Source of the DNA: Verrucomicrobiota bacterium
Lineage (GTDB): Bacteria > Verrucomicrobiota > Verrucomicrobiia > Limisphaerales > SIBE01
Assembly: GCA_016209525.1 (NCBI GenBank)
Contig: JACQWK010000074.1
Location: 2,205-66,204, forward strand
DNA length: 64,000 nt
Direction: 5' to 3'
Shown in pieces: positions 2,006-31,650 of the stretch. The notes under the pieces were generated by a model that worked only from the letters and a program-made list of their open reading frames with translations, searched no databases and was not told where the DNA came from. Both the position numbers and the translations under genes were made by a program. Within the stretch, counting starts at the first letter, position 1; the number at the start of each line of letters is the position of its first letter.

Positions 2006-2527
2006 TTACTTCGGGCTGGTTTGGTGATGTCCCAAGGTCGAGAGCCGAAACTCGCAAACGACCACTGGGAGATTAAAGATCGTTGCTTTCCTACCGCTGA
2101 CGACGCAAATGCTTGCCGCGGCCGGCAGCCCGTTTGTGGTGACGACGCACACTCGTCCGGTCGGATCTGTGAGAATGAAAAAGGATTCTCCGGGACGCCT
2201 TGCAGCCAGGTGAACCGACTCAACTCGGCCCAGGAGCAGAACTTTGGTTCCATCCTCCGTATCCTGAAGCGTCTCGCACCGATTGAAGACGGTGAAGTAC
2301 AAAAGCACCTGCGCGGCCAGGAGCAGCAGGCCGGCAAGGAAAAGCGATTTCACTCGCCAGAGCCAGATTTGCACGCGAATCACCCGGGCCACCAGGATGG
2401 CGGCAAGACCGAGAACCAGGACCAACAGTGCGCCCGGTTGCAGCAGCGCAGACCAGTCCTGCAAAGAGAAACCAAGAAGAAACAATGGTGTGTGATGGAT
2501 CATGGAGTCAACGATAGGAGTTGCCAC
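2006..2527 (-). CDS. Membrane protein with 2-3 TM helices and a beta-rich C-terminal domain
   Basis: Hydrophobic N-half; C-half VLLLGRVESV...FFILTDPTGRVCVV..VVSG looks OB-fold-like; overlaps upstream gene. Confidence 0.7.
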   Translation of the reverse strand: MATPIVDSMIHHTPLFLLGFSLQDWSALLQPGALLVLVLGLAAILVARVIRVQIWLWRVKSLFLAGLLLLAAQVLLYFTVFNRCETLQDTEDGTKVLLLGRVESVHLAARRPGESFFILTDPTGRVCVVTTNGLPAAASICVVSGRKATIFNLPVVVCEFRLSTLGHHQTSPK

Positions 2528-3509
2528 TGGCCTCTGGTTGCTTTTCCGCCGGGTCGGAAATGTAGATGAATTGGCTGCCCCGCAAGAGAATCCTGTTCAC
2601 GACATAAACCACCGACTGATCGTGGATCAGTAGATCGCCGTCGGTCACCGTCACGGTTTCTGGGTCGCTGATTCCCGCTGCGGCGATGGCGGCGAATTGC
2701 TTCCGAATGATCGACGAACCCACATCCGCCGTCGGGTGAAAAAACAGTTTAGCTGGTCTTCCGGCGAAGCAGAGTTCTACGGCCTCGGACAGCGCGGCAA
2801 ACGTCCCGTTCGGTCGGAGGTTGAGTGCGGAGGCGGAAATGTTTCGGGCGGTCCTCGAATCCAGCTTGATCAGCCTCGGATTCGTCTCCTGTTGCAGCAG
2901 GACGATCATCTTTTCGACCTGCCCGTTGAGTTCACCTTCCGCCACAATGAACCCCCGTTCCTTCCGGGCGAGCGTGAGAATTTCACCCGGAACGTAGCTG
3001 GCGAGCAACAGCGGCGGCCCTTTCCTTTCCAGCATCCACGCTTGGGCCTGTTCGAAATGATGGTCCCGTATCGGAAACGCCTTGCGGGAGTCGGCAGGCC
3101 TGGATTCGATCTCCTCGACCGGTGGCTTTACCTCCTTGGCGACAATCGCGTTGGTGACGGAGTCCTTCACCGGCGGAAGGCTCAACTTTTCCGGCTTGAG
3201 CTCCAGGACGTTGGTTTTGACTGGAAAGGCAGATGGCGTTGGGGGAGGCGCCTGCGGGGCATTGTCCGCAACGAATTCAGCCAGCGGAGGCTCTTGGCGC
3301 CGCTCCGCCGCCGCGACAGCAACAGGCTGGGGGGATGGCGGCGGCGGCTCTTGGCCCAGCCACAGGAACAGAGGTGCGTTCAGTGAAGGGATCAGCTTCT
3401 TGTCGTGTATCCAAACGAGGCCGAGCATCATTAGAATCAGCAGCGCCATAGCGGCGGCAAAAGCCAATTGATATCTGTGTTTGATGGTCAGGTTTTTCCA
3501 GCGTTTCAT
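2508..3509 (-). CDS. TonB/TolA-like architecture protein (N-terminal TM, Pro-rich linker, globular C-domain)
   Basis: TM LAFAAAMALLILMMLGLVWI, then EPPPPSPQP/APPPTP linker; immediately follows the ExbD-like gene. Confidence 0.7.
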   Translation of the reverse strand: MKRWKNLTIKHRYQLAFAAAMALLILMMLGLVWIHDKKLIPSLNAPLFLWLGQEPPPPSPQPVAVAAAERRQEPPLAEFVADNAPQAPPPTPSAFPVKTNVLELKPEKLSLPPVKDSVTNAIVAKEVKPPVEEIESRPADSRKAFPIRDHHFEQAQAWMLERKGPPLLLASYVPGEILTLARKERGFIVAEGELNGQVEKMIVLLQQETNPRLIKLDSRTARNISASALNLRPNGTFAALSEAVELCFAGRPAKLFFHPTADVGSSIIRKQFAAIAAAGISDPETVTVTDGDLLIHDQSVVYVVNRILLRGSQFIYISDPAEKQPEASGNSYR

Positions 3510-3510
3510 A

Positions 3511-3921
3511 TCATTCAGGAATTATGGCCAGGTGTGTCTTGGGCTCACGAAGACCCCTTTGCAGTTGCGCCAGGAGCCGGAAGAGGGACCCAGCCGGCTC
3601 CTTCTCGGTATGATGGATCAGGACGCCAAGGCCGCTGGCAGAGTTCGTAGCCCCGTACCGAGCCAGCCAACGGGCAAACTCTTGCTCGTTCACGGGGACG
3701 CTCTCCCGCGATCCGATCCGCACGCGCGACTCCGAAACATAAAGGGAGAGATCGACCTTGCGCTCCCCATCGCGGCCAGTGCTTCCAGCGCCAACCGGAA
3801 GCTGGGGACTGGCTTGGCTTCCGATGAGAAGCAAGAACACCGCCACGAGATTCATCAGGAGGTCCGATTGAATCACGCTCAGGGTTGGATCATTCGACTC
3901 GCTGAATTTCATAAAACTCAT
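3511..3921 (-). CDS. ExbD/TolR-like protein
   Basis: Single TM with Asp at its start (QSDLLMNLVAVFLLLI) and a small periplasmic alpha/beta domain; downstream of ExbB-like gene. Confidence 0.7.
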   Translation of the reverse strand: MSFMKFSESNDPTLSVIQSDLLMNLVAVFLLLIGSQASPQLPVGAGSTGRDGERKVDLSLYVSESRVRIGSRESVPVNEQEFARWLARYGATNSASGLGVLIHHTEKEPAGSLFRLLAQLQRGLREPKTHLAIIPE

Positions 3922-3956
3922 TGCATAAGCTTTCGCGCAAATTGCACAACGGCCCC

Positions 3957-4724
3957 TCACCCTGAATCCCTCTCCCCGCGCAATTCGCCGGCTTCGCATT
4001 CAACAGCGCGGGGAGAGAGCGCGGGTGAGAGGTGCATGTACTCTTGAAACGCTGCATCCGCTGCTTCAACGGAATTTGCAGAGCCATTGTTCGGCGCCTC
4101 ACCCGCGGCAGGAGTTGTCGGTGGCGGATTCAGACGCGGTTTGGTGAATTGATCCAGGAGTTCTCCGCCTTCAAATTCCAGATCGCTTTCGAGCTTTTCC
4201 AACGCGCGAAGGCTGCCGGCTTCGATCTCGCTGGCAATAGCGCCCAAGAGCGTCGTTCCCAATCCCATGCAAACGGCGGCGACCATATCGACGCTGCTGC
4301 GGCTATCGGCAAATGTCAGGGAACCCAGCAACAAGCCGAGAATCGTGCCCGCGAATCCGGCGACGGCCGCTTGGCCACGATTAGCACGGCATGCGCGGAC
4401 AAGCGGGGCAAGCGCTGATCCGATATCCCGGTTCACCCAGCGCTCGAATGTGTCGGATGGAACCGAGGTCCCCTTCGCCAGCCGGCAGGCCGTATGGATG
4501 GCCGGATGGACATGAACCTGCGCAATACAGTTCAAAGCGGACGCCCGATCCGCCGCCTCGTCGGCCAGGATTTGTTCCAAAGCCTCCTTTCCCAGCGCGA
4601 GTTGCTTGGTCAGACATCGTCTCGAGAAGACATGCCACAGCGCTCTGCCCAAACACCACGCCGAGGTCAAGTAGGCCGCAATGACCGTCGGTGAAAAGCC
4701 AAGGAGTTTATCGAGTGTCGTCAT
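3957..4724 (-). CDS. MotA/TolQ/ExbB proton-channel family protein
   Basis: N-terminal TM, then AGFAGTILGL and MGLGTTLLG matching the family GLxGTVxG / ALxTTxxG TM pair. Confidence 0.8.
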   Translation of the reverse strand: MTTLDKLLGFSPTVIAAYLTSAWCLGRALWHVFSRRCLTKQLALGKEALEQILADEAADRASALNCIAQVHVHPAIHTACRLAKGTSVPSDTFERWVNRDIGSALAPLVRACRANRGQAAVAGFAGTILGLLLGSLTFADSRSSVDMVAAVCMGLGTTLLGAIASEIEAGSLRALEKLESDLEFEGGELLDQFTKPRLNPPPTTPAAGEAPNNGSANSVEAADAAFQEYMHLSPALSPRAVECEAGELRGERDSG

Positions 4725-4731
4725 AGTTCTG

Positions 4732-5235
4732 TCATTTGGACGCCTTTTCCGCTTGGTTTTGAAGCTGTTCGACGCGCCGCTTCAACACATCTAACTGCGC
4801 CGCCAGCAGTCGAACCTGGCTTTCGAGCCGCGCCATTCGCGCGTCCGGAGTCGGCCGTGTGACCGATTCCGGCAGCGGAGCGACGACCGCAGCCTCGGCC
4901 GGGGGCGAATTTACCGCCGCTGGTGGCACGGCATTGGTCCGTGCTGGCCGCATCTGTTCGACCATCGGCTTCAACTCAGACAGAATCGTGGCGGACCGCT
5001 TTTGGAGCGTCTGCAGGTACTTCTGCCGATCGATCGTGCCGGCTTCCGCCGCGATGGCGCGGACGGTTTCCGCGGCTTCGATGAAGTTGAACTCTGGCAG
5101 GACAGGGCTCTGGCCCTGAACTTGGGCCGGAGGACGGTTCGTTGCAGGCGACGCCGAATCCTGGCCGGACAAGGTGGTGGTCATGAGAACGGTGAGTGCG
5201 GTTACGAGTGTGGTTTTCATAGTTAGAATAGTCAT
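4732..5235 (-). CDS. Secreted protein with C-terminal coiled coil
   Basis: Signal peptide MKTTLVTALTVLMTTTLSG; heptad RMARLESQVRLLAAQLDVLKRRVEQLQ; ATGA overlap. Confidence 0.75.
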   Translation of the reverse strand: MTILTMKTTLVTALTVLMTTTLSGQDSASPATNRPPAQVQGQSPVLPEFNFIEAAETVRAIAAEAGTIDRQKYLQTLQKRSATILSELKPMVEQMRPARTNAVPPAAVNSPPAEAAVVAPLPESVTRPTPDARMARLESQVRLLAAQLDVLKRRVEQLQNQAEKASK

Positions 5236-5456
5236 GGTTTTGAGTTCGGGTTTTCGCCTTGCGCCGCGAGTTCCAGCGTGGCGCGGAGTTTCTGCGCCAT
5301 CGCCAGGACTTCCGGATCGACCTGGGGCTTGGGTTTCGCGCTTTCGGGCTGGACGATCTCAGATGGCGTCCGCTCCGAGGTTTCGCTTTTCGAGCAGCCG
5401 CTTGCCAACAGGAGGCTGAAAGTCCCGGCCAGGAGCAAAATTGGTTTCATTCTCAT
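5232..5456 (-). CDS. Small lipoprotein
   Basis: Lipobox LLLASG-C after a basic/hydrophobic N-terminus. Confidence 0.75.
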   Translation of the reverse strand: MRMKPILLLAGTFSLLLASGCSKSETSERTPSEIVQPESAKPKPQVDPEVLAMAQKLRATLELAAQGENPNSKP

Positions 5457-5459
5457 ACG

Positions 5460-6482
5460 TTATTGCGAGTATTGGTTGAGTTGGTCCAACAGGGAACGCG
5501 AGGCTTCCTGTTTCGGTGCCGGTTCCGACTGCTGGGGCTTGGACCGATCCGGAACTTCCGGGGAAAGGCCCAGCAGCACCTGCCGCATCCCGTTCGCGCC
5601 TTTCTCTAGTACGCCCACGACTTCTTTCACGTGCCGGGTCACTTCGGCCGCGCGGCGAGACACCGCTCCTCCTTCGGCGACCACACCGGTCTCGCTGCCC
5701 ACGTAGCTGAAAGCCTCCGCCATCTCCTGATAGTCTTGGACGATGAAACCAAGCTTCTCCGCTTGCCGCGCGAGGTCTGCTTCGGAGTTTCGCAGAATCG
5801 CCTCGGCTTCCGTCAACTCGGCGAACGACCACTCGTTGATCTTGAAAGCAACCTTGGTGGCATTGGCCGCACGAAGGGCCTTCTCGATCATCTTGCGCAA
5901 GGGCGCGGGAATTTCCTCGTCGCTGCCGAAACCGAGGTCGCCCGCGACTTGGGCGAGTTCCTTCAAGCCGCTCTGTAAGGCCTCGGTCGTCTGCCGCAAT
6001 TGGCTGCTGTCGTGCTGGCGTGTGGACGTGTAGCCCTGCACGACGCGCAGCCCATTGACAACCTCGCCGTAGGCCGACCGCGTGACTTCCTGTGTGGCCT
6101 CGGCCTTGCGGACGATCTCGTCGCAGCCGCGTTTGCCAGTCGCCGCGGCGGCGGCCATGGCCTGGAGAAGCGTCGCCAAATTCGGATCGGACGGATCGCC
6201 TTGATACGCTTGGATAGCCGGGGCCAGCCGCTGCGCCGCCGATCCCAACTTGCCCAATTCGGCGCTGATTTCCTTCTTGAACTCTTGCAGGACGGCCGAA
6301 TCAGACCTGGCTCGGCTCGCCTGGGCTTCGGGAATTTCGCGCCGACCGAATTCGCCCACTTCACGCCCCTGCTGGGCGAATGCGGTCGAGGCCAGCAACA
6401 GATAGGAAGAAATGAGGAGGGTGGTTTTCATCGAGAGGATATTTTTCATGGGTATTGCTGTCATGTCTGGCTTCGCGTTCAT
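5460..6482 (-). CDS. Secreted long alpha-helical/coiled-coil protein (in-frame starts at 6701, 6482, 6431)
   Basis: Signal peptide MKTTLLISSYLLLASTAFA-Q; Ala/Glu/Gln-rich amphipathic helices throughout. Confidence 0.8.
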   Translation of the reverse strand: MNAKPDMTAIPMKNILSMKTTLLISSYLLLASTAFAQQGREVGEFGRREIPEAQASRARSDSAVLQEFKKEISAELGKLGSAAQRLAPAIQAYQGDPSDPNLATLLQAMAAAAATGKRGCDEIVRKAEATQEVTRSAYGEVVNGLRVVQGYTSTRQHDSSQLRQTTEALQSGLKELAQVAGDLGFGSDEEIPAPLRKMIEKALRAANATKVAFKINEWSFAELTEAEAILRNSEADLARQAEKLGFIVQDYQEMAEAFSYVGSETGVVAEGGAVSRRAAEVTRHVKEVVGVLEKGANGMRQVLLGLSPEVPDRSKPQQSEPAPKQEASRSLLDQLNQYSQ

Positions 6483-6522: not shown

Positions 6523-6540
6523 CGGATATCCGCGGATGTT
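6523..6540 (-). promoter_or_regulatory. Putative operator GAYRTC-N4-GAYRTY, copy 1
   Basis: CGGATATCCGCGGATGTT, 41 nt from ATG 6482. Confidence 0.7.
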
Positions 6541-6741: not shown

Positions 6742-6759
6742 CGGACCTCAGCAGATATC
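6742..6759 (-). promoter_or_regulatory. Putative operator, copy 2 (degenerate)
   Basis: CGGACCTCAGCAGATATC, 41 nt from ATG 6701. Confidence 0.55.
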
Positions 6760-6782: not shown

Positions 6783-8066
6783 TCAGTCATTGAGCACGCG
6801 GAAGGATGGCAGGCGCCAAGAGCGCTCAGGAGGCTTCCACTGGCTGTGCTTTTTTCGCAACCAACTTCGGAGCGCGCTCAATGCCGTGGACACCTTATGG
6901 CTGTCAATCGCGTTCACCCAGGCGTCCGGTGGAGGGCCTTTGAATTCGTGGTGGATTCGTTCCGCCAATTCCCGAGTCGCTTTGTGACTGATGCGGCTCT
7001 GGTCTGGTTTGACGCCGCAGCTTGCCTTGAATAACTCGGCAGCCATGACGAAGTCGCGGCAATTGTCGTCATTGACCCATCCTTGTTCGTTGGCTTCGAA
7101 TACGAACCGGACAACATCAAAAGCATTGCGGCCCTCGATGTCACAAACAAGAGCGTTCACCCGCACCCGGCAATTGGCTCGGTCGAAGAGAATGACCGCC
7201 TCCGGCGCACTCATGGCGTCGCGCTTAAGCCAGTTGCTGATTGTCCGCACCAAGCCCATGAATCCTCCCGGCACTTCTCCCAGATCTCGAAATCGGTTGA
7301 TCAGCGGGACAAAGGGAATGTCGGCCAGATCGATTCGGGCGTCAGAAGCGCGCACCGGCTGTTTGTCCCTCCCCGCCGTCAATTCCTGAACGGGCTGTTT
7401 GGGGAAGAAGAAGCCCCGACAATCGTCGAATGGACTGTTGACCAACACGTGAGTCACGCGGTCGGTCTCGCGCCCCAACAGGCTCATGCAAGCGTAGAGT
7501 AATGCTCCCATCGTCTTTCGGCCTCCGGCAATCGACGCAATAACGCGAGTGTCCGGATTGCCGACGAAACGCCGGACTTCCTCGAGCATGAAGTCGGCGG
7601 CGGCCACATTCTGTGCCGGGGTGCGCAGGTCGAGTGCAGGAGCCTTGACGCCGGTTGAAGGATCGGGCAGTTCGATGATGCGGCGACTCGGGATTTGCAG
7701 GCGCAAATCCGACGTTGCGGAAGGGCCCAACACGGCCCGGCGGAGTGTCTGCCACACGCTATATTCTCCCCATCCGGGCAGCGGTTTGACGACTCCGTCC
7801 TGCAAATTGAGAAGGTCTCGCTCGATGTCTTCGTTGCCCTTCGTCGTTGTGATCAAGACTACCTCATCAGGAATGATCCTCTCCTGGCCCTCAGGCGGAT
7901 GGGCCAGTCTCCAGATGGTTTCGGTGATGATCGCCGGCGACATGCCGGTAACGGCGAGCAGGACAGTTTGGCTGGGACCGGCACTGAGTGAGCCAGCGGA
8001 TTCAGCGGCGCTGGATGCTGGCTCCTTGGCGCGGGCGCCAGTCTTGGACTTTGATTTTGGTTTCAT
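6783..8066 (-). CDS. NE0113/TIGR02584-family CARF protein (Csx14-like; often annotated as ring nuclease) with C-terminal wHTH-like region
   Basis: LLAVTGMSPAIITET, PDEVVLITT, DLRT..N..AADF, ASIAGGRKTMG, SLLGRETDRVTHVLV signatures. Confidence 0.9.
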   Translation of the reverse strand: MKPKSKSKTGARAKEPASSAAESAGSLSAGPSQTVLLAVTGMSPAIITETIWRLAHPPEGQERIIPDEVVLITTTKGNEDIERDLLNLQDGVVKPLPGWGEYSVWQTLRRAVLGPSATSDLRLQIPSRRIIELPDPSTGVKAPALDLRTPAQNVAAADFMLEEVRRFVGNPDTRVIASIAGGRKTMGALLYACMSLLGRETDRVTHVLVNSPFDDCRGFFFPKQPVQELTAGRDKQPVRASDARIDLADIPFVPLINRFRDLGEVPGGFMGLVRTISNWLKRDAMSAPEAVILFDRANCRVRVNALVCDIEGRNAFDVVRFVFEANEQGWVNDDNCRDFVMAAELFKASCGVKPDQSRISHKATRELAERIHHEFKGPPPDAWVNAIDSHKVSTALSALRSWLRKKHSQWKPPERSWRLPSFRVLND

Positions 8067-8138
8067 CGGATAATGGATAGCAGCGACTGACGGCTGGAGG
8101 CGAATTGAGGATGTCGGTGGATGTCGGCGGCGGCGCAT

Positions 8139-9230
8139 TCAAGATGCATCAAGGAGTTCTTGCAGGCCGGAGTAGAGGGTTTCTTTAGTTAGTACCGGCA
8201 CGCCAAGATCGGCCGCGAATTGCATGACCTCCGCCGGAAGCACGCTCTTGCGGACGAAAACCACCTTCCCCAGCAGACCGCCAGCTCGCTGGACATCAAG
8301 TATGGCCTGCTTTAGCCAGATGTAGTGGGTCGCTTCAGCTTCATTTTCGAGCTGTTGGAGGCTACGAAAAATGGCATCGGCACCGTCACGTTTCTTGTCG
8401 ATGAAGTGGCGCACTTTCGTGAATTTGGCCCGGTGCGTGGTTCGGTCCTTGCAATCCACCAGCCAGAGTTTTCCGCCATAGTTGAAGACCACATCAAAGT
8501 CTGTTTGCTCCTTCGTCGTTCCGGCTTCGCGGATGCCAACGCTGCGATAAACACTCTTCACTCCACGCCACAGAGCGATTGCCGCCACGGCATATTCCAG
8601 CGAATCGCCCCGCTGCGGCTCGGAAGCAGGACGGCGGCGGCTGGTGAAGAAACTATGGGCGTTGGTCAATAGTTGCTTATGGAAGGACTCGGTTGAAACG
8701 TCCTCCCGCAATTGAAGCTTCTCGCCGCGACCGGACAGTTCGGTGTGGGACATCTGGCAAAGGAGCAGGTCCAAGGCATCCAGCTTGTCGGCAATGTGGC
8801 CGTCGATTTTTTCGGAGGAAGTCGTCAGATCCCGATTCTCAACCTTGAACCAAAACAACCGATTGCCTCGCTCCAGATAACAGGCAGGAACTTTGTTGCG
8901 GATGGCGTCCAGAAAGGCGCCAGTCGCCATCAATTTGTTGCCGCCGGTGAAGTGGGTGAGCCAGGAGGCGTCCTTTGCCTTCCCGCGGATTTCACGGCAA
9001 ATGCTCTCCACTTGGCGCATGTCATCGTGCGGAATTCGAACCGTCTGGATAGAGCTGCCGCTCAACAAGCCGGATTTGATAAAGAAATCTCTGAGGCGCC
9101 GGGCCGGTTTTTCAGATTCCTCCGCTTCGGAACTGTGCAAGAGAATCAAGCGTTCCGGTCGCAAGTGACTCACCACGAGCACATGCGGCCATACTTGTTT
9201 GGAAGCTAACGAAAGAAGAGTGGAGGGCAT
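8139..9230 (-). CDS. Card1/Can2-like CARF + PD-(D/E)xK nuclease (DUF1887)
   Basis: SLASKQVWP, HFTGGNKLMA CARF motifs; GDSLEYAV...DFDVV...LVDCK nuclease motifs. Confidence 0.85.
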   Translation of the reverse strand: MPSTLLSLASKQVWPHVLVVSHLRPERLILLHSSEAEESEKPARRLRDFFIKSGLLSGSSIQTVRIPHDDMRQVESICREIRGKAKDASWLTHFTGGNKLMATGAFLDAIRNKVPACYLERGNRLFWFKVENRDLTTSSEKIDGHIADKLDALDLLLCQMSHTELSGRGEKLQLREDVSTESFHKQLLTNAHSFFTSRRRPASEPQRGDSLEYAVAAIALWRGVKSVYRSVGIREAGTTKEQTDFDVVFNYGGKLWLVDCKDRTTHRAKFTKVRHFIDKKRDGADAIFRSLQQLENEAEATHYIWLKQAILDVQRAGGLLGKVVFVRKSVLPAEVMQFAADLGVPVLTKETLYSGLQELLDAS

Positions 9231-14027: not shown

Positions 14028-14045
14028 CGGACGTCCGGGGACGTG
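14028..14045 (-). promoter_or_regulatory. Putative operator, copy 3
   Basis: CGGACGTCCGGGGACGTG, 41 nt from cmr4-B ATG 13987. Confidence 0.75.
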
Positions 14046-14965: not shown

Positions 14966-16345
14966 TCATTGGAAGACCTCCTTGGCAAGCGCCTCGATTT
15001 TCGTCGAACTTGGATGCATCTGCACGTCGAAACCGACCAGTCCGTAGCCGCAGCCTTTCTCGCCGTAGAAGTCGGAGCGCGGCTGCCAGTGGAGTTTCTT
15101 CGCCAGCGCCGTGGCCGTTTCGCGGTCTTGGCAGAGGAAGTAGAAGACGGAGCCGGGCGGCACCGCGAGCATCGTTGGCTTGGCGCAGCCGTCCACCACA
15201 TCCCAGCCCGAAACCACCAGGGGTTTTCCCAGGCACCAGGAGATGAGTTGAGCGCGTCCGGGAAGTTCGAAGCAAACGCGTCCGACGGGCAGCGGGCCAG
15301 CGGACCGGTCCTTCTTCGTGTCCACGCACCAGCCCGGCAGGCTGCCGTGTGCAAAGATGGCGGGCGTGACGAGCACCCATTTCAGGAGGCATGGACCGCC
15401 CGAGACTGGTGGTGCTGGAGGCGTTATGAGGTCGGCAAAGAAATCGGGCAAGGGCTGGTTGTCGGCCTTCTTTTGCCAGACGCGGGCGAGGCGACGCTCG
15501 CCACCGAGCAGCAGCCAGTCGAGGTTTGAAATTTGCTTTGCTTCCCCATTGGCAGCGGCGCGGGCGTCGCCGAGATCAAGTTGGGCGGCGAAGCGAGTGT
15601 GAGCGTGAGTGCGCAAGAAACTGCCGGCGTAAAGCTGGCCCTCGGCGGCGGCGAAGCTCGTCGGATTGATTTCCACGCCGACGCGATGCTCAGACTGCCA
15701 CAGTTCGTCGGTAGGCAGCGGACGGAAACGTCCGTTCGCGCTATCCGATTCGCCCTCGAGGCAAGCGAGGTATTGGGCGATGGTCCACCAACCGTGGAGT
15801 TGACCGTGCTTGTCGGGCGGAGTCGTAGCCAACGGCAGGCACAGGGGCTCAGTGGTCTCCACTTCCTTCGCTTCGCCGGAGTTGACCGAAGGATTTCGCC
15901 CGAGCTTGAGACGCCGTAGATGCTGGCGACTGTCGTCGAATGCGAGATCAAGCGGGACGGGAAGCAGGGGGCCTTGGTAGGTCACTTGTAATCCGGTGGG
16001 CTGGCCGTTTTTCATTTCTTTCCAAGTGAACGGGTCAGCGAGGAACGGCAGCGGACCAACGATGCGGAGCGAACGAAAGGCGCGAGTGACGATGAGGCGG
16101 CGGTCCTTCTCCGGCCAATCCTCACCACGCCAGTTTCCTCTGCGTGGAGCTGACTTGGGACGTCCCACCTCGCTCTTTTCTCGCACTGATGGGCCCGTGG
16201 CCAAAAGCAGACTGGCGCGGAAAGCTTCGTGCAAGGTGCTGGGGAAAGGCATCCGACATCCGGCCCCTTTACCCTGGCCGGCAGACATTGGGATGGCGTC
16301 GCGGAAGAACAAAACGTCGGCGGGTTCAAGCAAGACGGTGTTCAT
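14966..16345 (-). CDS. cmr3: Type III-B Cmr3 (operon B)
   Basis: LEPADVLFFRD, LGGERR, LVTPAIF, VSGWD..KP..AVPPGSVFYF, GEKGCGYG; ATGA overlap with cas10-B. Confidence 0.95.
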   Translation of the reverse strand: MNTVLLEPADVLFFRDAIPMSAGQGKGAGCRMPFPSTLHEAFRASLLLATGPSVREKSEVGRPKSAPRRGNWRGEDWPEKDRRLIVTRAFRSLRIVGPLPFLADPFTWKEMKNGQPTGLQVTYQGPLLPVPLDLAFDDSRQHLRRLKLGRNPSVNSGEAKEVETTEPLCLPLATTPPDKHGQLHGWWTIAQYLACLEGESDSANGRFRPLPTDELWQSEHRVGVEINPTSFAAAEGQLYAGSFLRTHAHTRFAAQLDLGDARAAANGEAKQISNLDWLLLGGERRLARVWQKKADNQPLPDFFADLITPPAPPVSGGPCLLKWVLVTPAIFAHGSLPGWCVDTKKDRSAGPLPVGRVCFELPGRAQLISWCLGKPLVVSGWDVVDGCAKPTMLAVPPGSVFYFLCQDRETATALAKKLHWQPRSDFYGEKGCGYGLVGFDVQMHPSSTKIEALAKEVFQ

Positions 16346-19161
16346 GGCTGTTCGGTTGGTTGATGGATCCGGTTCACAAAGGCCCAAGCCATCCAGAAGT
16401 GGATGAAGTTGCGCGGAGACAGGGCAGGTTCGTTGAGATTCTCACCAATGAGCGCGCCAATCCAGCGGCCGGCGTTGCTCGTGGCGTCGGCCTGGTCTTG
16501 GTTCGCCTGCTTTTTCAATACATGGCGCAACTCAGCTTCCACAGAGCCCTTCAAGTCCGAAGTCCATTGCTTCTCCCAACCGTCGTCGTTGTTCTTGTCG
16601 GTGGAGCCCAGCAACGGGCGAATCAACTGGAGGTAGCGATAGGCAAAACGTCCGCTCTGATCGAGATGCCCACTGCTGAGTTCGGCCCAAACGCCGGCCA
16701 CGCCGCTGGACCATTTCGCCGCGAACCGGGCCGACTCGCCGCAGCGTTTGAGGATGCTTACACAGAAAGCGCCTTTCCCAGGCACGGACTTGGCCGCGTG
16801 TTCGGCGTCACGCGCGGCCTGAATGGTGTCTTGCATGGGCGTGCGAACGTGGCCGATCGCGATGCCGACCGACGCGGTGGATTCGGGTCCCATGACCATG
16901 AGGGGCCAATTGGGGCGATGATGCTCCTCTGAACTCGCGTGCTCCTGGCAGCAAACGAAACCGGGCGTGGGGAATTCAAAGAGGTTCAACAATACTCGCC
17001 GAACGCGATTGTCTTCGGGCAAAGATTCGATTGCTTTTTTATCTCCACGAAAGGCCAGCGTGAGCGCTTGAGCGCAATCCAGGGCAGTTTCGGCGGGCAA
17101 CATGGCCAGGACGTCGTCGCCTCCAGAGAAAAGAAGCCGCCCGTGAAACTCGTCGTGTTCCACGATGGACTTAACGCAGTAGAGGCCGAAGTTGCTGAGG
17201 GCTTCGGAAAGGGCCACATGGAATCCTGGCGTGAGCACGCGACGAACGCTTTTGAATGGCGGCAGGCCAGCGGAATTGGAGGTATCCCAGTACTTCTTGA
17301 AATAGCCCTTCGGTGATTTCTCGTCTGATTCGTCACCAGCAAGCGAAGTCAAAAGCGGCGGCGCTTTCACTCCACTCACCCATTGGCCCATGTCGTCCCC
17401 GTCCATCGCGAGGACGGCGTAATAGGTCGGTTCTTTCTCTTTAGCTGCCTCGCCCTCTTCGCGGGCAATCGCGACGTCGATGACTGACTCAAACTCCGGT
17501 GGCATACACTTTAGGATTTTCATCATCCAGAGGTTTGAAAGACGTTTGATGACGTTCAAAGCTCCGTACTTTTGTTTGCCTTTGAACTTGCCACGCTCCT
17601 CGCCGCCGTAGGCTTCGCGGAGCACAGCCCAAAACCGATTGTTTGGATTGTCCGGATTGTCTTCGGCCAGCCCTTGAGTCGGGCCGCCCAAAACTTCGCT
17701 CCGTCCATCCAAGTGGTCCTTGGGCACGCCACGTTCCAGTTGCCGGTTGGCGCCATCCCAAGTGGCGAAGGCGCGGGCATTCTTGGCGGCAGCGAATTTC
17801 CAGTCGGTAAGGGCGTAGTTCAGTGCCCAAACCAAGCCCGCGTTGTCGAAAACCGGCATTGCTCCGAGTGCGAGTGGTTGACCGTTCGCGTCCAACAGCA
17901 GAGATTTCCATTCCGTCCCCTCTTTCCACGACTTGCGCTTGTAGCAGCGGGCGTCTCGGTGTTCGGGAAGGATCATCTCTCTGGCCCATTGAACCGCGTG
18001 CCGGAGCGGGTGGTTCTTCCATCCATCCTTCAGCGGCGGTGTGGCAAGCTCTTCGGCTTGTTTGATGGCCTGCTCCGGCCCAAGCCAGTCATGCACGACG
18101 TAATCCACGATTGGGAAGCGGGCGACCTGTTCATCCCAGAACATATCCCAGTCGGGGAAGTGGCCGTCCGTCTGTTTCAGCTCTTCGACAATGTCGTCAC
18201 GGACTGCTTTGGCGATTCGGCTCCATTCGGTACGAACAGACTCCTCGGCAATCTCAGGAAGCGTCTTTCCGTCGGGTTTCGCGTCTTTCCGCCATCCCTT
18301 CGGAATTACCGCGAGGAAGCGGTTGGGTAGGTTCGGCGTGAGCAGTTCGTTTTCGTGCGAAGCGCGCAGCTTGCTTGGCAGGATGCCTTGGTTGTGCCAG
18401 AACCAATCTGCCAAGGGCACGCCGCGCAGTTGAGGGTAGATGATAGCGTCGGGACCGATTTCGCGAGCGATCGCCAACATCGCTTGCGCGATGAGGTAGC
18501 TCAGCAAAAAACTGCCGGCCCATAAATCCTGTGTCTTGCGGGCCTGCTTGATGAAATCCTGAACAGGACCGATCTGGAACAGGAGAAAGGAGACGCCTTG
18601 CTCGCAATTCGCCAAGGCGCTGACCAACCCGTTGTGCTGCCAAAGCGTGTGGTCAGGAATGCGAGTGTCGGCGACCAGGAAGTTGAGTTGTCCGGTCTCG
18701 CGGGCGCAGAGTTCGGGCCAAAGGCGCCAGACCAGTGGGAATTTTCGTTTCCAGTCCTGTCCTTCCTTGGCGCCGACGCGCTGAAGGGCACGGGTCATCA
18801 TGGTTTCCGCGGCTTCAGGCGTGGCCGGAAACTCGGAAAGGGACAACGACGTCCCCGCGAGCGGATGGTGGAATGCGAAGCCGCTTTCCCTCCAATCCGA
18901 CCTGACGCCGCTGAGTTCGGGATGGGGAAAGACAAAACGATCCGCCGCCGCAGCCATGTGATCGTCCATACGGACGAAATGGTGGCGCATGTCATCCAAT
19001 GTCAGACCTACTTCCCGCAGAAATGATTCGCGCGCGTCTTCATGCCCCGCGATGCGGAAAGGCTTGTGCGGCGGATCGTGCAGGAAGGCGAGGAGTTTTC
19101 GTTTCCAGAGTTCAGACATAACGCGAAGAGGGTTTGAAGCGGGCGCAGGACGTTCAGTCAT
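16342..19161 (-). CDS. cas10: Type III-B Cas10/Cmr2 (operon B)
   Basis: KLLAFLHDPP, ADTRIPDHT, IGPVQDFIKQARKTQDLWAGSFLLS, AMDGDDMG, FSGGDD. Confidence 0.97.
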   Translation of the reverse strand: MTERPAPASNPLRVMSELWKRKLLAFLHDPPHKPFRIAGHEDARESFLREVGLTLDDMRHHFVRMDDHMAAAADRFVFPHPELSGVRSDWRESGFAFHHPLAGTSLSLSEFPATPEAAETMMTRALQRVGAKEGQDWKRKFPLVWRLWPELCARETGQLNFLVADTRIPDHTLWQHNGLVSALANCEQGVSFLLFQIGPVQDFIKQARKTQDLWAGSFLLSYLIAQAMLAIAREIGPDAIIYPQLRGVPLADWFWHNQGILPSKLRASHENELLTPNLPNRFLAVIPKGWRKDAKPDGKTLPEIAEESVRTEWSRIAKAVRDDIVEELKQTDGHFPDWDMFWDEQVARFPIVDYVVHDWLGPEQAIKQAEELATPPLKDGWKNHPLRHAVQWAREMILPEHRDARCYKRKSWKEGTEWKSLLLDANGQPLALGAMPVFDNAGLVWALNYALTDWKFAAAKNARAFATWDGANRQLERGVPKDHLDGRSEVLGGPTQGLAEDNPDNPNNRFWAVLREAYGGEERGKFKGKQKYGALNVIKRLSNLWMMKILKCMPPEFESVIDVAIAREEGEAAKEKEPTYYAVLAMDGDDMGQWVSGVKAPPLLTSLAGDESDEKSPKGYFKKYWDTSNSAGLPPFKSVRRVLTPGFHVALSEALSNFGLYCVKSIVEHDEFHGRLLFSGGDDVLAMLPAETALDCAQALTLAFRGDKKAIESLPEDNRVRRVLLNLFEFPTPGFVCCQEHASSEEHHRPNWPLMVMGPESTASVGIAIGHVRTPMQDTIQAARDAEHAAKSVPGKGAFCVSILKRCGESARFAAKWSSGVAGVWAELSSGHLDQSGRFAYRYLQLIRPLLGSTDKNNDDGWEKQWTSDLKGSVEAELRHVLKKQANQDQADATSNAGRWIGALIGENLNEPALSPRNFIHFWMAWAFVNRIHQPTEQP

Positions 19162-19201: not shown

Positions 19202-19354
19202 CGGACGTCCGGGGACGTCGGAGGAAATTCTTGGAGTTTTGGGCTTCTCTTGCACGGTTTTCCTTTGGCTACGGTCGAGAAGTGTATGGCGCGCAGCGGC
19301 CCAGGCAACGGAAAGTTATTGGATGTTGTTCACTGGCTTTTCACAGGTTACTCC
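19202..19354 (-). promoter_or_regulatory. Conserved cas10 leader, copy B (operator copy 4 at 19202-19219 plus upstream sigma70-like promoter)
   Basis: Near-identical to 31941-32091; operator 41 nt from ATG 19161; sense TTGCCT-N16-TACACT upstream. Confidence 0.8.
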
Positions 19355-20997: not shown

Positions 20998-21002
20998 GCG
21001 AC

Positions 21003-26846: not shown

Positions 26847-26864
26847 CGGACGTCGGCGGACGTT
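26847..26864 (-). promoter_or_regulatory. Putative operator, copy 5
   Basis: CGGACGTCGGCGGACGTT, 41 nt from cmr4-A ATG 26806. Confidence 0.7.
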
Positions 26865-26983: not shown

Positions 26984-28459
26984 TCATTCGCCATAAAACC
27001 TCCAGGTTCCGCAGACCCCCAGCCCGTAGCCCTTCTCGCCCAGCAGCGTGCTGCGGCGGTTTTGGATTTTGCTCCCGTCACCGCTGCCGTGCCAGTTGAG
27101 AGCGTTGGCGAGCGCAAGGGCATGCGCGGGGCCGCCGTCTTTGTCCGGCTCGGCCTCGAAGTAATACACCGCTCCGGCGGACACGGCGAGGTGAGTGGAT
27201 TTAGCGCCCGATGGGATTTCCGATTTTTGATTTTCAGATTTGGATTCGGCGAGCGACCAACCGGTGACAATTATGGGTTTGGGGACGATGGCGGCGACAA
27301 GGCGGGCGGGGATTGTTGAACCGGGAGCGCCTCCCTTGCGTTTGGCTTTGCGAAGGCCGCTACCGGTGGTCAGCAGTACTTGACCGCCGCGCTCGTCAAA
27401 GCGCGCCTCGCGTTTTTCGCTGTCCCAGTTCACGAAAACCCAGTTGGGCAACCAGCCGCCGGGATGTGGGTTTTGCGGTGAACCGTCCTTCTTCGCGGGG
27501 GGAATCTCCGGCCAGAGTGCGGGCGTCAGGAGCGCCCATTTCACCGGGAACTTGCCGTTGGGCAGTGGTTTGAAATCAACGGCGGCATGCAACCCCTTGG
27601 GGAGCGGCAACGGTTGCGGGGCGTTGCGACGGTGCGCCGTGCAGAGCCGTTGTTGGCCGCCGACGATGATGTTTTGCGGCTGGCCGTTGAGCAGGGTCTG
27701 GAGGAGGTCGCTATTGTGTTGTTTGAATTCCTTGTCCATCGCTTCAGCAAACAGACCGAGCCGGAATTCCTCGCGCAGACGGAGGTAATGGGCGGAGTAG
27801 AAGTTGGTTTTGTCCTGCGTCTGGGTTTCGGGGTCGATGCCGATGCCGATGGCGTACTCTGTGTCGGCAATGTCGGTGTCGCGCAGGAAGTGATCGCCGG
27901 GTTTGTCGGGCTTGAGGTCATCAGAGCCCCGCAGGAAAGAGTTGAACGCATCGGTGGAAATCCACGACTCGCCGCCAGCGTCCTTGGCGGGCGGCCGGCT
28001 GTTGGCCACTGCATACTTGGGCGGCGTGGCAAGGCTGGAGGTCTGCCAAGGTTGTTCAACCCCGGGCAGGGAGATGACCGGGCACAGGGTGACGGCGACG
28101 CTGCCGTTGAGTTGAGCGTCCTTCGGGCGGGGGAAGAACCAAGTCGCCTTGCCTCCTTTTTCGCGCACCGGAAAAGGGCCGGCAGTGAGAAGGGAGCCGA
28201 ACAGTCTCCCGTGTTTCGCTCGGTTTTCATCCGAGTGGTCGCGTTTGTCCGAGGACCGACCGGGGGCATGCCGGTGCAGCTTCACGCCGGTTTCTTGCTC
28301 AAGGCCGGCGCGATGCAACGCGGCGTGGAGCGCGTGGTTGGTGACGTCCGGCAACGGCCAGGCAGCGGTATGGCCAGCGAGCGAACCGCTCATTGGGCGG
28401 CCATCGCGGAAGAACAGCACGTCGGTGGGTTGAAGAAGAATTTGATGCAGGTTGTTCAT
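26984..28459 (-). CDS. cmr3: Type III-B Cmr3 (operon A)
   Basis: PTDVLFFRDGRP, VGGQQR, LLTPA, AVSAGAVYYF, GEKGYGLG. Confidence 0.95.
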   Translation of the reverse strand: MNNLHQILLQPTDVLFFRDGRPMSGSLAGHTAAWPLPDVTNHALHAALHRAGLEQETGVKLHRHAPGRSSDKRDHSDENRAKHGRLFGSLLTAGPFPVREKGGKATWFFPRPKDAQLNGSVAVTLCPVISLPGVEQPWQTSSLATPPKYAVANSRPPAKDAGGESWISTDAFNSFLRGSDDLKPDKPGDHFLRDTDIADTEYAIGIGIDPETQTQDKTNFYSAHYLRLREEFRLGLFAEAMDKEFKQHNSDLLQTLLNGQPQNIIVGGQQRLCTAHRRNAPQPLPLPKGLHAAVDFKPLPNGKFPVKWALLTPALWPEIPPAKKDGSPQNPHPGGWLPNWVFVNWDSEKREARFDERGGQVLLTTGSGLRKAKRKGGAPGSTIPARLVAAIVPKPIIVTGWSLAESKSENQKSEIPSGAKSTHLAVSAGAVYYFEAEPDKDGGPAHALALANALNWHGSGDGSKIQNRRSTLLGEKGYGLGVCGTWRFYGE

Positions 28460-31400
28460 GGCGTCGCGAGTTGCCTTTCGGCAGCGGGTTGAGTTTCGAA
28501 TGTTTCGTTTGGAGTTTCGGGTTTCTCCTCAGACAGATTGCGTGCGATGAAGGCGGCGGTCTGGCAAAGGCCGATGAGGGCCTGAATCGGGTCTTCGGTT
28601 CGCTGCCGATCAAGCTGCCTGCGCGTGCTTTCCACCTGGCTCTTGAGCCACTTCGCGTCCGCATCCGGCAAGCCCTGCAGTGATTCAGCTTCATCCAGCA
28701 GATCCCGGAGTTCCCCTTCGCGGTCTTGCTCGGAGACGACTTTAGCCTCGCCGAGTTCCTTCAGTTTCTTGGTCATTTGAGCGGTTACCGCCAATTTCGC
28801 GAGCCGAACTTCGAGCCGCTCGCAAAGATTCGCGGCCAAAGCAACGGCGGCGCGCTGGATTACGTGGTTCAGGTAGCGATCTATTGAAACTTGATTGGAA
28901 GACCCGTTCCGAGGCTCCGCGAGTTCCTTCAGCTTGGCATGCTCGTCTTTCATATCCTTCTGCTTCTGCCGCTCGACAGCATGGCGGAACTCACGGCGGA
29001 CGATGTCCACGACGGGGAAGTCCTTCACGGGTTCAAGGCTTTTGGCGGCAAGCGGGCTGGTCTCGGTGAGATAGGCACCGAGCAACTCGACCACGCGATG
29101 GGGGAACTTGTTGCTGACCGCGCCAGCGCCGATGGCCTCGAGGATAGCACCGTGAATCTCCAGGCCGCCGCTGTCCCACTGGCAGCCCCATTCGATAGTT
29201 TCGCCACTGCGTTTCATGAGCGTGACGGCTACGGCGCTGCGGCCCAGTTCGTTCTTGGCGCGTTTCTCGGCGCGTTGCGCTTCGCGCACGACGTCCTGGA
29301 GCGGCGACTTGAAATGGGCGATGGCGATCCCGACGGAGCAGTCGGCGGCAGAGCCGGGGACAAGGAAGGGAAAGCGCACCGGTTCATCGAGCAGGCCGGC
29401 TTCGGCACCCGATCCTTTTGGCGCGGCCTGTTCTGTCAGCTTGATGAAGCCGGGATGTTCGACAGCGAACAGAGGCGTCTTGCCGTCCGACTTCCATTCC
29501 TCGCGATTCCGCGGCCCGCGGTTCACGATGCCCTTGGCAAGCTCGGACAGACGTGGTTCGCCTTTGAAGGCAGCCCGCAGCGCACGGGCGCAGGCCAGCG
29601 CGGTGTCTGCCGGAAGCATCGCCAGCACATCGTCGCCGCCGGAATAAATGAGACAGCCATCGTGGGCTTCGACAATGGGCCGGGCGCAGTGTAGGCCGAA
29701 GTTGGCGAGGAGTTCGGAGAACTGGAGATGAAACGAGGGCGAAAGCGGACGGCGTCCCTTGAGGAATTCCGCGTTGCCGTGCCGGGTGAAGTAAGCGTGA
29801 GCTTCACGCGAAAGCTGTCCGGCCACCTCCGGGCACTTCGCGCCGGATATCCACTTGCCCACCTCGTCGCCATCCAGGGCAAGCACGGCAAAGTATTTGC
29901 CCTCATCCTCACTGCCGGATTCGTCGTCTGCTGACAAGGCGAACGGCTGATGTGCAGCGATGGAGCGCGTATTCGGCATGGCGAAGTCGCCCTCGTTGGG
30001 GAAAAAGGCGTGTTCCTTGGACAACCACGTGAGGTGCCAAAGGCGCTTAAGCAGCGTGGAGGCTCCGAGCAGGTCGCGGGGTTTGAAAGCGTTTTCGTTG
30101 CCATCGGCTAACCGGCGGGAGATATTCTTGGCTTCGTTTTGGTCCGTCGGCACTTCCAGACAGGCTTCTTCTTTGCCGTTGAGCGAGTCTTTGTTCTGCC
30201 ACCGGTCCACCCGCCAGCCGCCGTCGCTCCAAGCCAAAAAGCTGCGCGTGGTCTTCGCCGCGTCCAATTGCCAAGAAACCAGGGCGAACAAGGCGGACCA
30301 GGCATTGGAAACTTGCGAAAGCGGCCCGGCTTTGTCTGGGGAGCCGAGTTGCTGGTCTCTGAAGCACCACGGGTCCCGGTGTTCAGGCCGCATGCGGTCC
30401 AGCATGGCGAGCACACCGCGCAACGGATCGAGCGGGTGCTCTCGCTCTTCCCCCGGCAGGCGCGCCGTGGATTCGATTGCGCTTTTGATTGATTCCGGCC
30501 ACGGCAGAACCTGCCAGTGGACTTCGAGCAGTTTTTCCAACTGAGCCCTAAAGCGCGCAATATCGACGCTGCCCGGCACCTTGTCAGCACAATGCTCGGC
30601 CACCGAATCCCCGATTCGGCGTAATTGCGCACGGACTTCGGATTCGAGGTGCGCAGCGTAGCGCGCGGCTCCCGTGCGCCCCACGCTGTCCGGCGTCTGC
30701 CATTGAGGATGCTCGGCCATCGTCGCGGGCAACAGCGCAAGAACGCGATTCGGCAGGCTGGGCGTCAGCAGCCGTTCCCTCTCTCGCTGGTCGTAGTAAC
30801 CGAAGGCCCGCCAGAGTTCCGTCCCGTCCGCCGCTTTGTGGTGATCCCAAAGCTCCCGGCGCAAGAGGAGGTCCAGAATCGGCTGGTTGGCCAGGTTTGG
30901 GAACAGGACGTGATCCGGCCCGAAATCCAGAGCGATCCGGGCGAGCGCGGTGCCGATGAGATAGCTCAACAGATAGGAACCGCTCCACAGGTCCCGGGTG
31001 CTGCGCGCAGCGGCGATGAGCTCCTGCACCGGCCCGATGGTAAAGAGCAGGAACGCGGGTCGGTCAGGTGGAGGCTGGGGCCTTTGGCCTTTGCTCCTGG
31101 CGTCCAGCCAGTCCTTCAAACTGCCGCCAAGACAGCCTTGGAATGCGCTGGTGACGGCCAAGTGGTTCCAAATGGTGTGATCTGGAAGGCGCGTCTCCGC
31201 CGGCAGGCAGGAAAACCGTTCGTCCGCTGCCGAAGCCCAGTTCTGCCAGAAACGCCAGGCACAGATGAACGCGGCCCGCGGGTCATCATCCGTGATGAGT
31301 GGCCGTGATTTCTGCGAAATCTCCAATGCGGCCGTTGGCGAGGCAAACGGCTGGAGAAAGTGGATTGACGTCATCCCCAATGGGTGGCGGAGAGCGTTGT

Positions 31401-31650
31401 CCGTGGCGTCGAATTCCGAGCGGCAGAGCACCGTATCGCCGAGTTTTGTCTTGGGCCATGGCAGCCGGTCGGCGGCTGAGGCGGCGATGTCGGCCGACTT
31501 GCGGGTGGTTTCTTCCGGATGAAAACCTTCGGCTTGCGCCAGTGACCTGGCTCGGTCCTCATGGTCCACGATGCTGATAACTTTGTCAGGGCTGTCGTGA
31601 AGATAGGCGCTGAGTTTGCGGCGCCAATAGGTTGGATTATCGAGGCTCAT
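28456..31650 (-). CDS. cas10: Type III-B Cas10/Cmr2 (operon A)
   Basis: KLSAYLHDSP, PAETRLPDHT, IGPVQELIAAARSTRDLWSGSYLLS, ALDGDEVG, YSGGDD. Confidence 0.97.
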   Translation of the reverse strand: MSLDNPTYWRRKLSAYLHDSPDKVISIVDHEDRARSLAQAEGFHPEETTRKSADIAASAADRLPWPKTKLGDTVLCRSEFDATDNALRHPLGMTSIHFLQPFASPTAALEISQKSRPLITDDDPRAAFICAWRFWQNWASAADERFSCLPAETRLPDHTIWNHLAVTSAFQGCLGGSLKDWLDARSKGQRPQPPPDRPAFLLFTIGPVQELIAAARSTRDLWSGSYLLSYLIGTALARIALDFGPDHVLFPNLANQPILDLLLRRELWDHHKAADGTELWRAFGYYDQRERERLLTPSLPNRVLALLPATMAEHPQWQTPDSVGRTGAARYAAHLESEVRAQLRRIGDSVAEHCADKVPGSVDIARFRAQLEKLLEVHWQVLPWPESIKSAIESTARLPGEEREHPLDPLRGVLAMLDRMRPEHRDPWCFRDQQLGSPDKAGPLSQVSNAWSALFALVSWQLDAAKTTRSFLAWSDGGWRVDRWQNKDSLNGKEEACLEVPTDQNEAKNISRRLADGNENAFKPRDLLGASTLLKRLWHLTWLSKEHAFFPNEGDFAMPNTRSIAAHQPFALSADDESGSEDEGKYFAVLALDGDEVGKWISGAKCPEVAGQLSREAHAYFTRHGNAEFLKGRRPLSPSFHLQFSELLANFGLHCARPIVEAHDGCLIYSGGDDVLAMLPADTALACARALRAAFKGEPRLSELAKGIVNRGPRNREEWKSDGKTPLFAVEHPGFIKLTEQAAPKGSGAEAGLLDEPVRFPFLVPGSAADCSVGIAIAHFKSPLQDVVREAQRAEKRAKNELGRSAVAVTLMKRSGETIEWGCQWDSGGLEIHGAILEAIGAGAVSNKFPHRVVELLGAYLTETSPLAAKSLEPVKDFPVVDIVRREFRHAVERQKQKDMKDEHAKLKELAEPRNGSSNQVSIDRYLNHVIQRAAVALAANLCERLEVRLAKLAVTAQMTKKLKELGEAKVVSEQDREGELRDLLDEAESLQGLPDADAKWLKSQVESTRRQLDRQRTEDPIQALIGLCQTAAFIARNLSEEKPETPNETFETQPAAERQLATP

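What the first reader, a model, noticed from the sequence alone, without database searches (positions are those of the whole stretch)
6783..8066. NE0113 CARF protein has an OmpR-like winged-helix tail: candidate cOA-responsive regulator of the operator
Seen: after the CARF domain, ILFDRANCRVRVNALVCDIEG..FDVVRFV ... W...DSHKVSTALSALRSWL follows the beta-sheet/helix/recognition-helix pattern of OmpR/PhoB wHTH domains. Known: CARF domains bind cyclic oligoadenylate from GGDD-intact Cas10, CARF-HTH regulators exist (Csa3), and OmpR-type wHTHs bind 10-bp-periodic repeats, matching the two GAYRTC halves 10 bp apart. Inference: a signal-driven transcriptional loop rather than, or in addition to, ring nuclease activity.
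Basis: inference. Interest (0 to 1): 0.7.

Follow-up and report, generated by a model that had tools for sequence, protein, structure and literature searches.

The report
CRISPR alarm-sensing activator and its operator
A CRISPR accessory protein joins a sensor domain for the immune alarm signal to a predicted OmpR-type DNA-binding domain, and a conserved DNA box sits at a fixed place before its own gene and other defence genes, so it likely turns the alarm into more defence-gene transcription.

Summary
The 427-aa ORF (6783-8066, minus strand) is a TIGR02584/NE0113 CARF protein. Its C-terminal domain matches OmpR/PhoB winged helices by profile (best PrrA, E 3.5e-5) and by predicted fold (best BaeR, Z 6.4).

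The box GAYRTC-N4-GAYRTC is real: seven sites in this type III-B locus, six of them 43-44 nt before an ATG. Across related loci a -10 element lies 30 nt after it, placing it at -58 to -43: activator geometry.

In a phylum sample the box was in 18 of 30 Cas10 loci of genomes with the gene and 2 of 25 without. A closer, order-level sample was weaker (7 of 20 versus 2 of 18, not significant), and some gene-less loci keep the box. Gammaproteobacterial homologues have a different palindrome whose core occupies the same promoter position.

The CARF keeps both ring-nuclease motifs. Best model: a cOA-switched, self-limiting activator of cas, effector and other defence genes. DNA binding, ligand and sign of control are untested. 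CARF-wHTH regulation by NE0113 was predicted in 2014; the OmpR fold, operator and regulon were not found in the papers searched.

The parts
6783..8066 (-). NE0113/TIGR02584 gene, 427 aa: CARF5-clade domain (about residues 33-261) plus OmpR/PhoB-type winged helix (about 283-427)
6786..7220 (-). C-terminal winged-helix domain (residues 283-427); predicted recognition helix 389-405; extra helices inserted relative to canonical OmpR domains
8110..8125 (-). Box (exact) 44 nt before the ATG of the NE0113 gene; inferred autoregulation site
19204..19219 (-). Box (exact) 43 nt before cas10/cmr2 copy A; TAGGGT in the -10 slot
14030..14045 (-). Box (1 mismatch) 43 nt before cmr4 copy A
26849..26864 (-). 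Box (1 mismatch) 43 nt before cmr4 copy B
31943..31958 (-). Box (exact) with TATTCT in the -10 slot, about 290 nt upstream of cas10/cmr2 copy B
6744..6759 (-). Box (1 mismatch) 43 nt before ATG 6701 of the downstream operon
6525..6540 (-). Box (1 mismatch) 43 nt before in-frame ATG 6482, the likelier start of the first gene of the downstream operon
16342..19161 (-). Cas10/Cmr2 copy A, GGDD intact (inferred cOA source)
28456..31650 (-). Cas10/Cmr2 copy B, GGDD intact
8139..9230 (-). Card1/Can2-like CARF4 PD-(D/E)xK effector directly upstream of the gene
2508..6482 (-). Five-gene operon behind two boxes, including a MotA/TolQ/ExbB-like protein (3957-4724); inferred regulon member of unknown role

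Best explanation
This protein has a CARF domain and a predicted OmpR/PhoB-type winged helix, and is likely the activator that binds the GAYRTC-N4-GAYRTC box, predicted to be switched on by cyclic oligoadenylate from Cas10 and to switch itself off by slowly cleaving it. Shown: the domains, the box, its fixed distance to a -10-like element and to start codons, and its partial co-occurrence with the gene. Inferred steps: (1) Cmr recognises target RNA and Cas10 makes cOA, probably cA4. (2) cA4 binds the CARF dimer and re-orients the two winged helices. (3) They bind the two hexamers one helical turn apart, at -58 to -43. (4) RNA polymerase is recruited to sigma70-type promoters with a poor -35, many of them leaderless. 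(5) cas10, cmr4, cas1, effectors, other defence genes and the regulator itself are upregulated. (6) The G-x-S and G-R-K motifs cleave cA4 and reset the switch.
For: Fold and sequence. Promoter geometry: TAnnnT starts 31 nt after the box in 24 of 76 exact sites on the operon strand versus 2 of 75 on the opposite strand (40 versus 6 at offsets 30-32), with a weak TTG at the -35 slot and an ATG peak at 43-44 nt. Six window sites have an ATG at 43-44 nt. Not a host-wide regulon in G000: 7 exact sites against 9.4 expected; 5 of the 6 intergenic-proxy sites with an ATG at 41-47 nt are in this locus; none at the third Cas10 locus. Co-occurrence in the phylum: 18 of 30 versus 2 of 25, while spacers of 3, 5 and 6 nt gave 0-2 genomes per group. 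About seven sister contrasts on a Cas10 tree point the same way and one the other way. Among all gene families in those loci this one predicts the box best (16 of 24 versus 4 of 31 by the exact rule), and it is the only family associated with a box in both clades. In closed genome G943 the gene lies 1.27 Mb from the cmr locus in a two-gene operon headed by the box, with ATG at 43 nt. Gammaproteobacterial loci have no exact PVC box (0 in 40 loci) but carry GCAAGCTTGC in 13 of 28 versus 1 of 10 genomes. Its AAGCTT core lies at -48 to -43, exactly where the proximal GAYRTC lies, and the recognition helix differs there. CARF residues G41, S43, E49, D146, G182, R183, K184 are conserved in 40-43 of 43 and match Crn1 motifs I and II (PMC10018336).
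Against: No binding, ligand or expression data. The order-level replicate was weak: exact box in 7 of 20 versus 2 of 18 (p 0.13); 9 of 20 versus 2 of 18 with a start-codon rule (p 0.03). Six of the 18 gene-less genomes carry real-looking sites (G807, G820 twice, G892, G924, G1099, G1072), and G1016 a 2-mismatch one. G354 (99% complete) has a site at the canonical distance before cas10 and no gene. Twelve of 30 gene-bearing phylum loci lack an exact box. The gammaproteobacterial test is only p 0.06, and I widened its pattern after seeing variants. Box and gene are partly confounded with operon lineage, and kin are not independent. This protein and its three closest relatives differ from the clade consensus at predicted base-facing positions (K391 for D, T394 for K/R/H) yet the window's boxes are canonical. 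Fold Z values are under 8. For the archaeal ring nuclease Sis0811, docking did not support DNA binding by its winged helix (PMC8643638).
Confidence: 0.5

Rival explanations
1. Another factor, such as a host OmpR-family regulator or an unrecognised locus protein, binds the box. This protein is a co-regulated ring nuclease whose winged helix is only structural, as proposed for Sis0811.
For: The box persists in gene-less genomes G354, G820, G1072, G807 and others. The catalytic motifs are intact. The recognition helix of this subclade has drifted without a change of box. A small candidate ring-nuclease family tends to be absent where this gene is present (7 of 24 versus 16 of 31, p 0.11).
Against: No box regulon outside the locus in G000. 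Genomes without the gene show only background counts of box plus -10 (about 0.4 per genome, at most 4). No other family in the loci tracks the box as well. Two unrelated host groups place different boxes at the same promoter position next to homologous genes. Most exceptions are on contigs that end in or within about 3 kb of the cmr operon, or are degraded loci; G128 has no RAMP gene assembled at all.
Confidence: 0.25
2. The protein binds the box, but cOA is not an on-switch: the apo form drives basal cas expression and cOA releases it, or it acts as a roadblock or repressor relieved by cOA.
For: The same co-occurrence data. S. islandicus Csa3b acts as both repressor and activator (PMC8844856). 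cA4 moves the Sis0811 winged helices apart.
Against: The box lies at a fixed spacing upstream of a weak -35 and never over the -35 or -10, which fits recruitment better than occlusion (general knowledge of bacterial promoters). Turning off effectors and viperin on infection would be counter-adaptive (inference).
Confidence: 0.2
3. The box is a co-inherited promoter relic or repeat of one cmr lineage with no current binder.
For: Relic-like single sites at degraded loci (G1072, G1016).
Against: Spacer and flanks vary freely while both hexamers and the 30-nt distance to the -10 are kept over 76 sites, in front of unrelated genes.
Confidence: 0.05

Closest known systems
TIGR02584 / PF09623 Cas_NE0113 (CARF5 clade; NCBIfam name 'CRISPR-associated ring nuclease Csm6')
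   Same: It is a member. Makarova et al. 2014 (PMC4012209, passages read) predicted that NE0113 and Csa3 regulate transcription directly.
   Different: The models cover only the CARF part. The passages read give no OmpR-type assignment, binding site or regulon. It has no HEPN domain despite the Csm6 name.
Csa3a/Csa3b (archaeal CARF-wHTH transcription factors)
   Same: CARF plus winged helix; cA4 binding; control of cas genes (PMC8844856, passages).
   Different: Csa3 is encoded with type I systems and Csa3Sso lacks ring nuclease activity. This protein is bacterial, twice as long, inside type III loci, has an OmpR-type domain and keeps the catalytic motifs.
Crn1 ring nucleases Sso2081, Sso1393, Sis0811
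   Same: CARF fold (Sso2081 Z 13.9); motifs I and II conserved; some carry a winged helix.
   Different: Csx14/Crn1 model scores 21 bits against a cut-off of 90. The Sis0811 winged helix is MarR-like and was judged structural. The ring-nuclease census PMC12409355 capped length at 250 aa, which excludes this family.
OmpR/PhoB-type activators without a receiver domain (CadC, ToxR; TcpP and SARPs recalled)
   Same: Same DNA-binding fold on a non-phosphorylation sensor (CadC and ToxR appear); sites one helical turn apart upstream of the -35 (recalled).
   Different: The sensor is a CARF domain N-terminal to the winged helix, and the winged helix has a 30-45 residue helical insertion.

Membership tests
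Cas_NE0113 / TIGR02584 (CARF5) | Score above the curated cut-off | tested here: met
   Pfam 86.7 vs 23 bits; NCBIfam 192 vs 80.65; best PADLOC models are CARF5
Cas_NE0113 / TIGR02584 (CARF5) | Encoded with a type III system that has a cyclase-intact Cas10 | tested here: met
   Two Cmr2 proteins with GGDD; 48 of 52 gene-bearing genomes in the order sample have Cmr2
OmpR/PhoB winged helix (Trans_reg_C) | N-terminal beta sheet, helical core with recognition helix, C-terminal wing | tested here: met
   Models; BaeR Z 6.4 over the whole domain; profile hits to PrrA, SaeR, CadC, PhoP. Z is middling.
OmpR/PhoB winged helix (Trans_reg_C) | Pfam PF00486 at the gathering threshold | tested here: not met
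   4 of 89 homologous domains match weakly (best E 0.0046); this protein does not
OmpR/PhoB winged helix (Trans_reg_C) | Sequence-specific binding to repeated half-sites | not testable with these tools
   Only indirect co-occurrence
OmpR-family response regulator | N-terminal receiver domain | tested here: not met
   The N-terminal domain is CARF
Crn1 ring nuclease | Motif I G-x-S and motif II G-R-K | tested here: met
   G41/S43 and G182-R183-K184 conserved; motifs as defined in PMC10018336
Crn1 ring nuclease | Csx14/Crn1 family profile | tested here: not met
   TIGR03642 21.4 bits vs cut-off 90.35
Crn1 ring nuclease | Cleaves cA4 | not testable with these tools
   Needs an assay
Csa3 | CARF plus C-terminal winged helix, no nuclease effector domain | tested here: met
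Csa3 | Encoded with archaeal type I systems | tested here: not met
   Bacterial type III-B locus
Csa3 | MarR-like winged helix (recalled for Csa3) | tested here: inconclusive
   OmpR-type chains rank first; other winged helices follow within 1.5-2 Z units
Csm6 (CARF-HEPN ribonuclease) | HEPN domain with conserved R-x4-6-H | tested here: not met
   No HEPN family hit; R400 is conserved but no following His in the consensus

The most novel reading that the evidence does not exclude
The widespread TIGR02584 family, annotated as a ring nuclease, is a bacterial one-component activator that reads cOA, drives a positive-feedback regulon (cas10, cmr4, cas1, Card1/Csm6 effectors, viperin, DUF2130, ARPP-1 genes and itself) from a box whose proximal core is fixed at -48 to -43, and times itself out by cleaving its ligand, with clade-specific operator codes in PVC bacteria and Gammaproteobacteria.
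Probability: 0.45. Interest if true: 0.85.

Novelty: new variant of a known kind. Interest (0 to 1): 0.72.

Why it matters
How bacteria raise type III CRISPR expression on infection is poorly known. This gene is common: 30 of 55 PVC and 30 of 43 gammaproteobacterial Cas10 genomes sampled. Its length excludes it from a recent ring-nuclease census. The finding supplies what a 2014 prediction lacked: a DNA-binding fold, two candidate operators, the promoter position and a target list that reaches beyond cas genes to viperin. That makes a cOA-to-transcription loop directly testable with one protein and a 16-bp probe. A cOA-responsive activator and promoter pair would also be a ready reporter for Cas10 activity.

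Tried and rejected
Foldseek on the whole model returned only CARF matches; on the C-terminal domain nothing significant. Homodimer prediction gave no answer; it is not used either way. No RNA holder was listed for the locus, so the start sites are untested. The metagenome scan for close relatives found none, so the boxes of the subclade with the drifted helix could not be examined. A GC-weighted matrix missed AT-rich sites and was replaced by a fixed IUPAC rule. The first Cas10 tree timed out; FastTree on the region around GGDD was used, and the G337 row may be mis-windowed. A host-wide regulon such as an SOS box was rejected for G000. A transmembrane reading from the PADLOC label CARF_TM was rejected (highest 19-residue hydropathy 1.3). 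The longer 451-aa start at 8138 was rejected because it overlaps the box and the closest homologues are 427-428 aa. The 124-aa protein found behind several boxes had no match in Pfam, PADLOC or PDB. The ESM Atlas gave no usable hit for ORF 5463-6701. Literature: ten full-text searches found no report of either box or of an OmpR-type domain in this family. Makarova et al. 2020 on CARF classification was not held; it and its supplements may describe this domain. No supplements were read.

Full report
Observation. The ORF at 6783-8066 on the minus strand encodes 427 aa. It matches Cas_NE0113 at residues 43-261, TIGR02584 far above cut-off and CARF5-clade models. It ends a type III-B region with two cmr operons whose Cas10 proteins keep GGDD, directly behind a Card1/Can2-like gene. 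Named relatives are mostly Verrucomicrobiota.

The tail is an OmpR/PhoB-type winged helix. The full model has mean pLDDT 90.5. In a search of 48,161 chains the only top-50 rows covering residues 289-427 were BaeR, VanR and CadC (Z 6.3, 6.0, 5.9). The domain folded alone ranks BaeR first (Z 6.4, rmsd 3.3, 95 aligned), followed by PhoP, CadC, GlnR, VanR and PrrA among other winged helices. These Z values are middling, and Foldseek was not significant. Independent sequence support comes from a profile of 89 homologous tails, whose best PDB matches are nearly all OmpR/PhoB domains (PrrA E 3.5e-5). Pfam Trans_reg_C matches only 4 of 89 weakly. There is no HEPN motif.

The box is real and behaves like an activator site. 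GAYRTC-N4-GAYRTC occurs 3 times exactly and 9 times with one mismatch in the window (0.03 and 1.37 expected). Six sites end 43-44 nt before an ATG: the gene itself, cas10 A, both cmr4 genes, and two in-frame starts of the downstream operon. A seventh has TATTCT in the same -10 slot upstream of cas10 B. Over 76 exact sites in related loci (three duplicate loci left out), TAnnnT begins 31 nt after the box in 24 cases versus 2 of 75 on the opposite strand. A weak TTG sits at the -35 slot and start codons peak at 43-44 nt. This puts the box at -58 to -43 of sigma70-type promoters that are often leaderless (inference; no start-site data). Genome-wide the box is not enriched (7 seen, 9.4 expected), sites with this geometry cluster in this locus, and the genome's third Cas10 locus has none. 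Genes behind boxes elsewhere include cas10, cmr4, cas1, Card1-like and Csm6 effectors, the gene itself, a viperin, DUF2130 and ARPP-1 genes.

Does the box belong to this protein? Of 401 genomes of the phylum, 72 had a Cas10 match; I took the 55 besides G000 with E at or below 1e-8. Thirty had the gene (one weak fusion hit, G222, counted as absent). An exact box lay in the fetched stretch of up to 20 kb around cas10 in 18 of 30 versus 2 of 25 (p 6e-5, inflated by kinship); other spacer lengths gave 0-2 genomes per group. On a Cas10 tree about seven sister comparisons agree and one, G354, disagrees. G128, the other exception, has no RAMP gene assembled. A screen of all gene families in these loci ranks this family first: 20 of 24 versus 4 of 31 when four loci with 1-mismatch sites are accepted after the fact, 16 of 24 versus 4 of 31 by the exact rule. 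In closed genome G943 the gene sits 1.27 Mb from the cmr genes, beside an array, in an operon headed by the box.

A second clade gives a natural control. I fetched 40 loci from 38 of 43 gammaproteobacterial Cas10 genomes. None has the exact PVC box. GCAAGCTTGC is present in 13 of 28 with the gene and 1 of 10 without (p 0.06). With a pattern widened after inspection, 57 sites show a -10-like element 33 nt after the centre (15 versus 1). The AAGCTT core therefore lies at -48 to -43, the position of the proximal GAYRTC. The predicted recognition helix differs between the clades, but this is one evolutionary transition.

Results against. In the window's own order, 66 of 300 other genomes had Cmr2, 48 with the gene and 18 without. 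I examined all 18 and 20 of the 48. The exact box was in 7 of 20 versus 2 of 18 (p 0.13), or 9 of 20 versus 2 of 18 with a start-codon rule (p 0.03). Six gene-less genomes have real-looking sites. Five lie on contigs that end in or within about 3 kb of the cmr operon, where the gene could be unassembled; G1072 is an orphan cas10. Seven gene-less loci without a box have a different gene order, so box and gene are partly confounded with lineage. This protein and its three closest relatives have also drifted at predicted base-facing helix positions while the window's boxes stay canonical.

Mechanism. The CARF domain resembles Cad1 (Z 15.0) and Sso2081 (Z 13.9) and conserves G41, S43, E49, D146 and G182-R183-K184, the motifs needed for cA4 cleavage in Crn1 (PMC10018336, passages). 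The most likely reading is an activator switched on by cA4 that amplifies the defence locus and ends the response by cleaving its ligand. I put the protein being the binder at about 0.7 and the whole mechanism at 0.5. Rivals are another binder with this protein as a ring nuclease only (0.25), binding with the opposite or no ligand effect (0.2), and a relic (0.05).

What is known. PMC4012209 (passages) predicted that NE0113 regulates transcription. Csa3 is the characterised CARF-wHTH factor and lacks ring nuclease activity (PMC8844856, passages). The Sis0811 winged helix was judged structural (PMC8643638, passages and Discussion). PMC12409355 (passages) capped ring nucleases at 250 aa. PMC11229360 (passages) showed no such regulator in the passages read. 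Ten searches found neither box nor the OmpR assignment. The 2020 CARF classification was not held, so its text and supplements may bear on novelty.

Verdict. Observation confirmed; interpretation partly supported. This is a new variant of a known kind: a member of TIGR02584 that works like Csa3 but with a different DNA-binding fold, a defined candidate operator and likely self-inactivation. Interest 0.72.

Noticed in passing
window 2508-6482 (-): Five-gene operon behind two boxes, with a MotA/TolQ/ExbB-like protein at 3957-4724 (Atlas score 0.91, structure TM 0.62) and coiled-coil proteins that look secreted. No Pfam, NCBIfam or PADLOC hit in those tested. Possibly a proton-channel defence module under the same control.
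   Followed up: partly
L014:13479-14429 and L044:11255-12193: Radical SAM genes start 43 nt after a box; the L014 protein is a prokaryotic viperin by PADLOC (E 5e-85). DUF2130, ARPP-1, a UvrD helicase, cas1, Card1-like and Csm6 genes also follow boxes.
   Followed up: partly
L061, L064, L066, L071, L159-L186: Gammaproteobacterial type III loci carry a different palindrome, GCAAGCTTGC and variants, with a -10-like element 33 nt after its centre.
   Followed up: yes
window 10756-31650 (-): Two complete cmr operons in tandem, separated by broken CARF-gene fragments (20192-21168) and small toxin-antitoxin-like genes. A short copy of the cas10 start lies at 31766-31836.
   Followed up: no
window 1-1400 (-): Reverse transcriptase (RVT_1 E 5e-34) next to a cas1 just outside the window: likely an RT-Cas1 adaptation module.
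   Followed up: partly
protein P0003: A close homologue (69% identity) has an HD_4 (RelA/SpoT-type HD) domain fused N-terminal to the CARF-winged helix.
   Followed up: no
L103:7694-8065, L059:1295-1666 and relatives: A 124-aa family that often starts 44-47 nt after a box and tends to be absent where the NE0113 gene is present (p 0.11). No library match; candidate small ring nuclease (inference).
   Followed up: partly
L096 (G002): Only a remnant of the NE0113 gene remains before cas10, and no box was found in the locus.
   Followed up: partly
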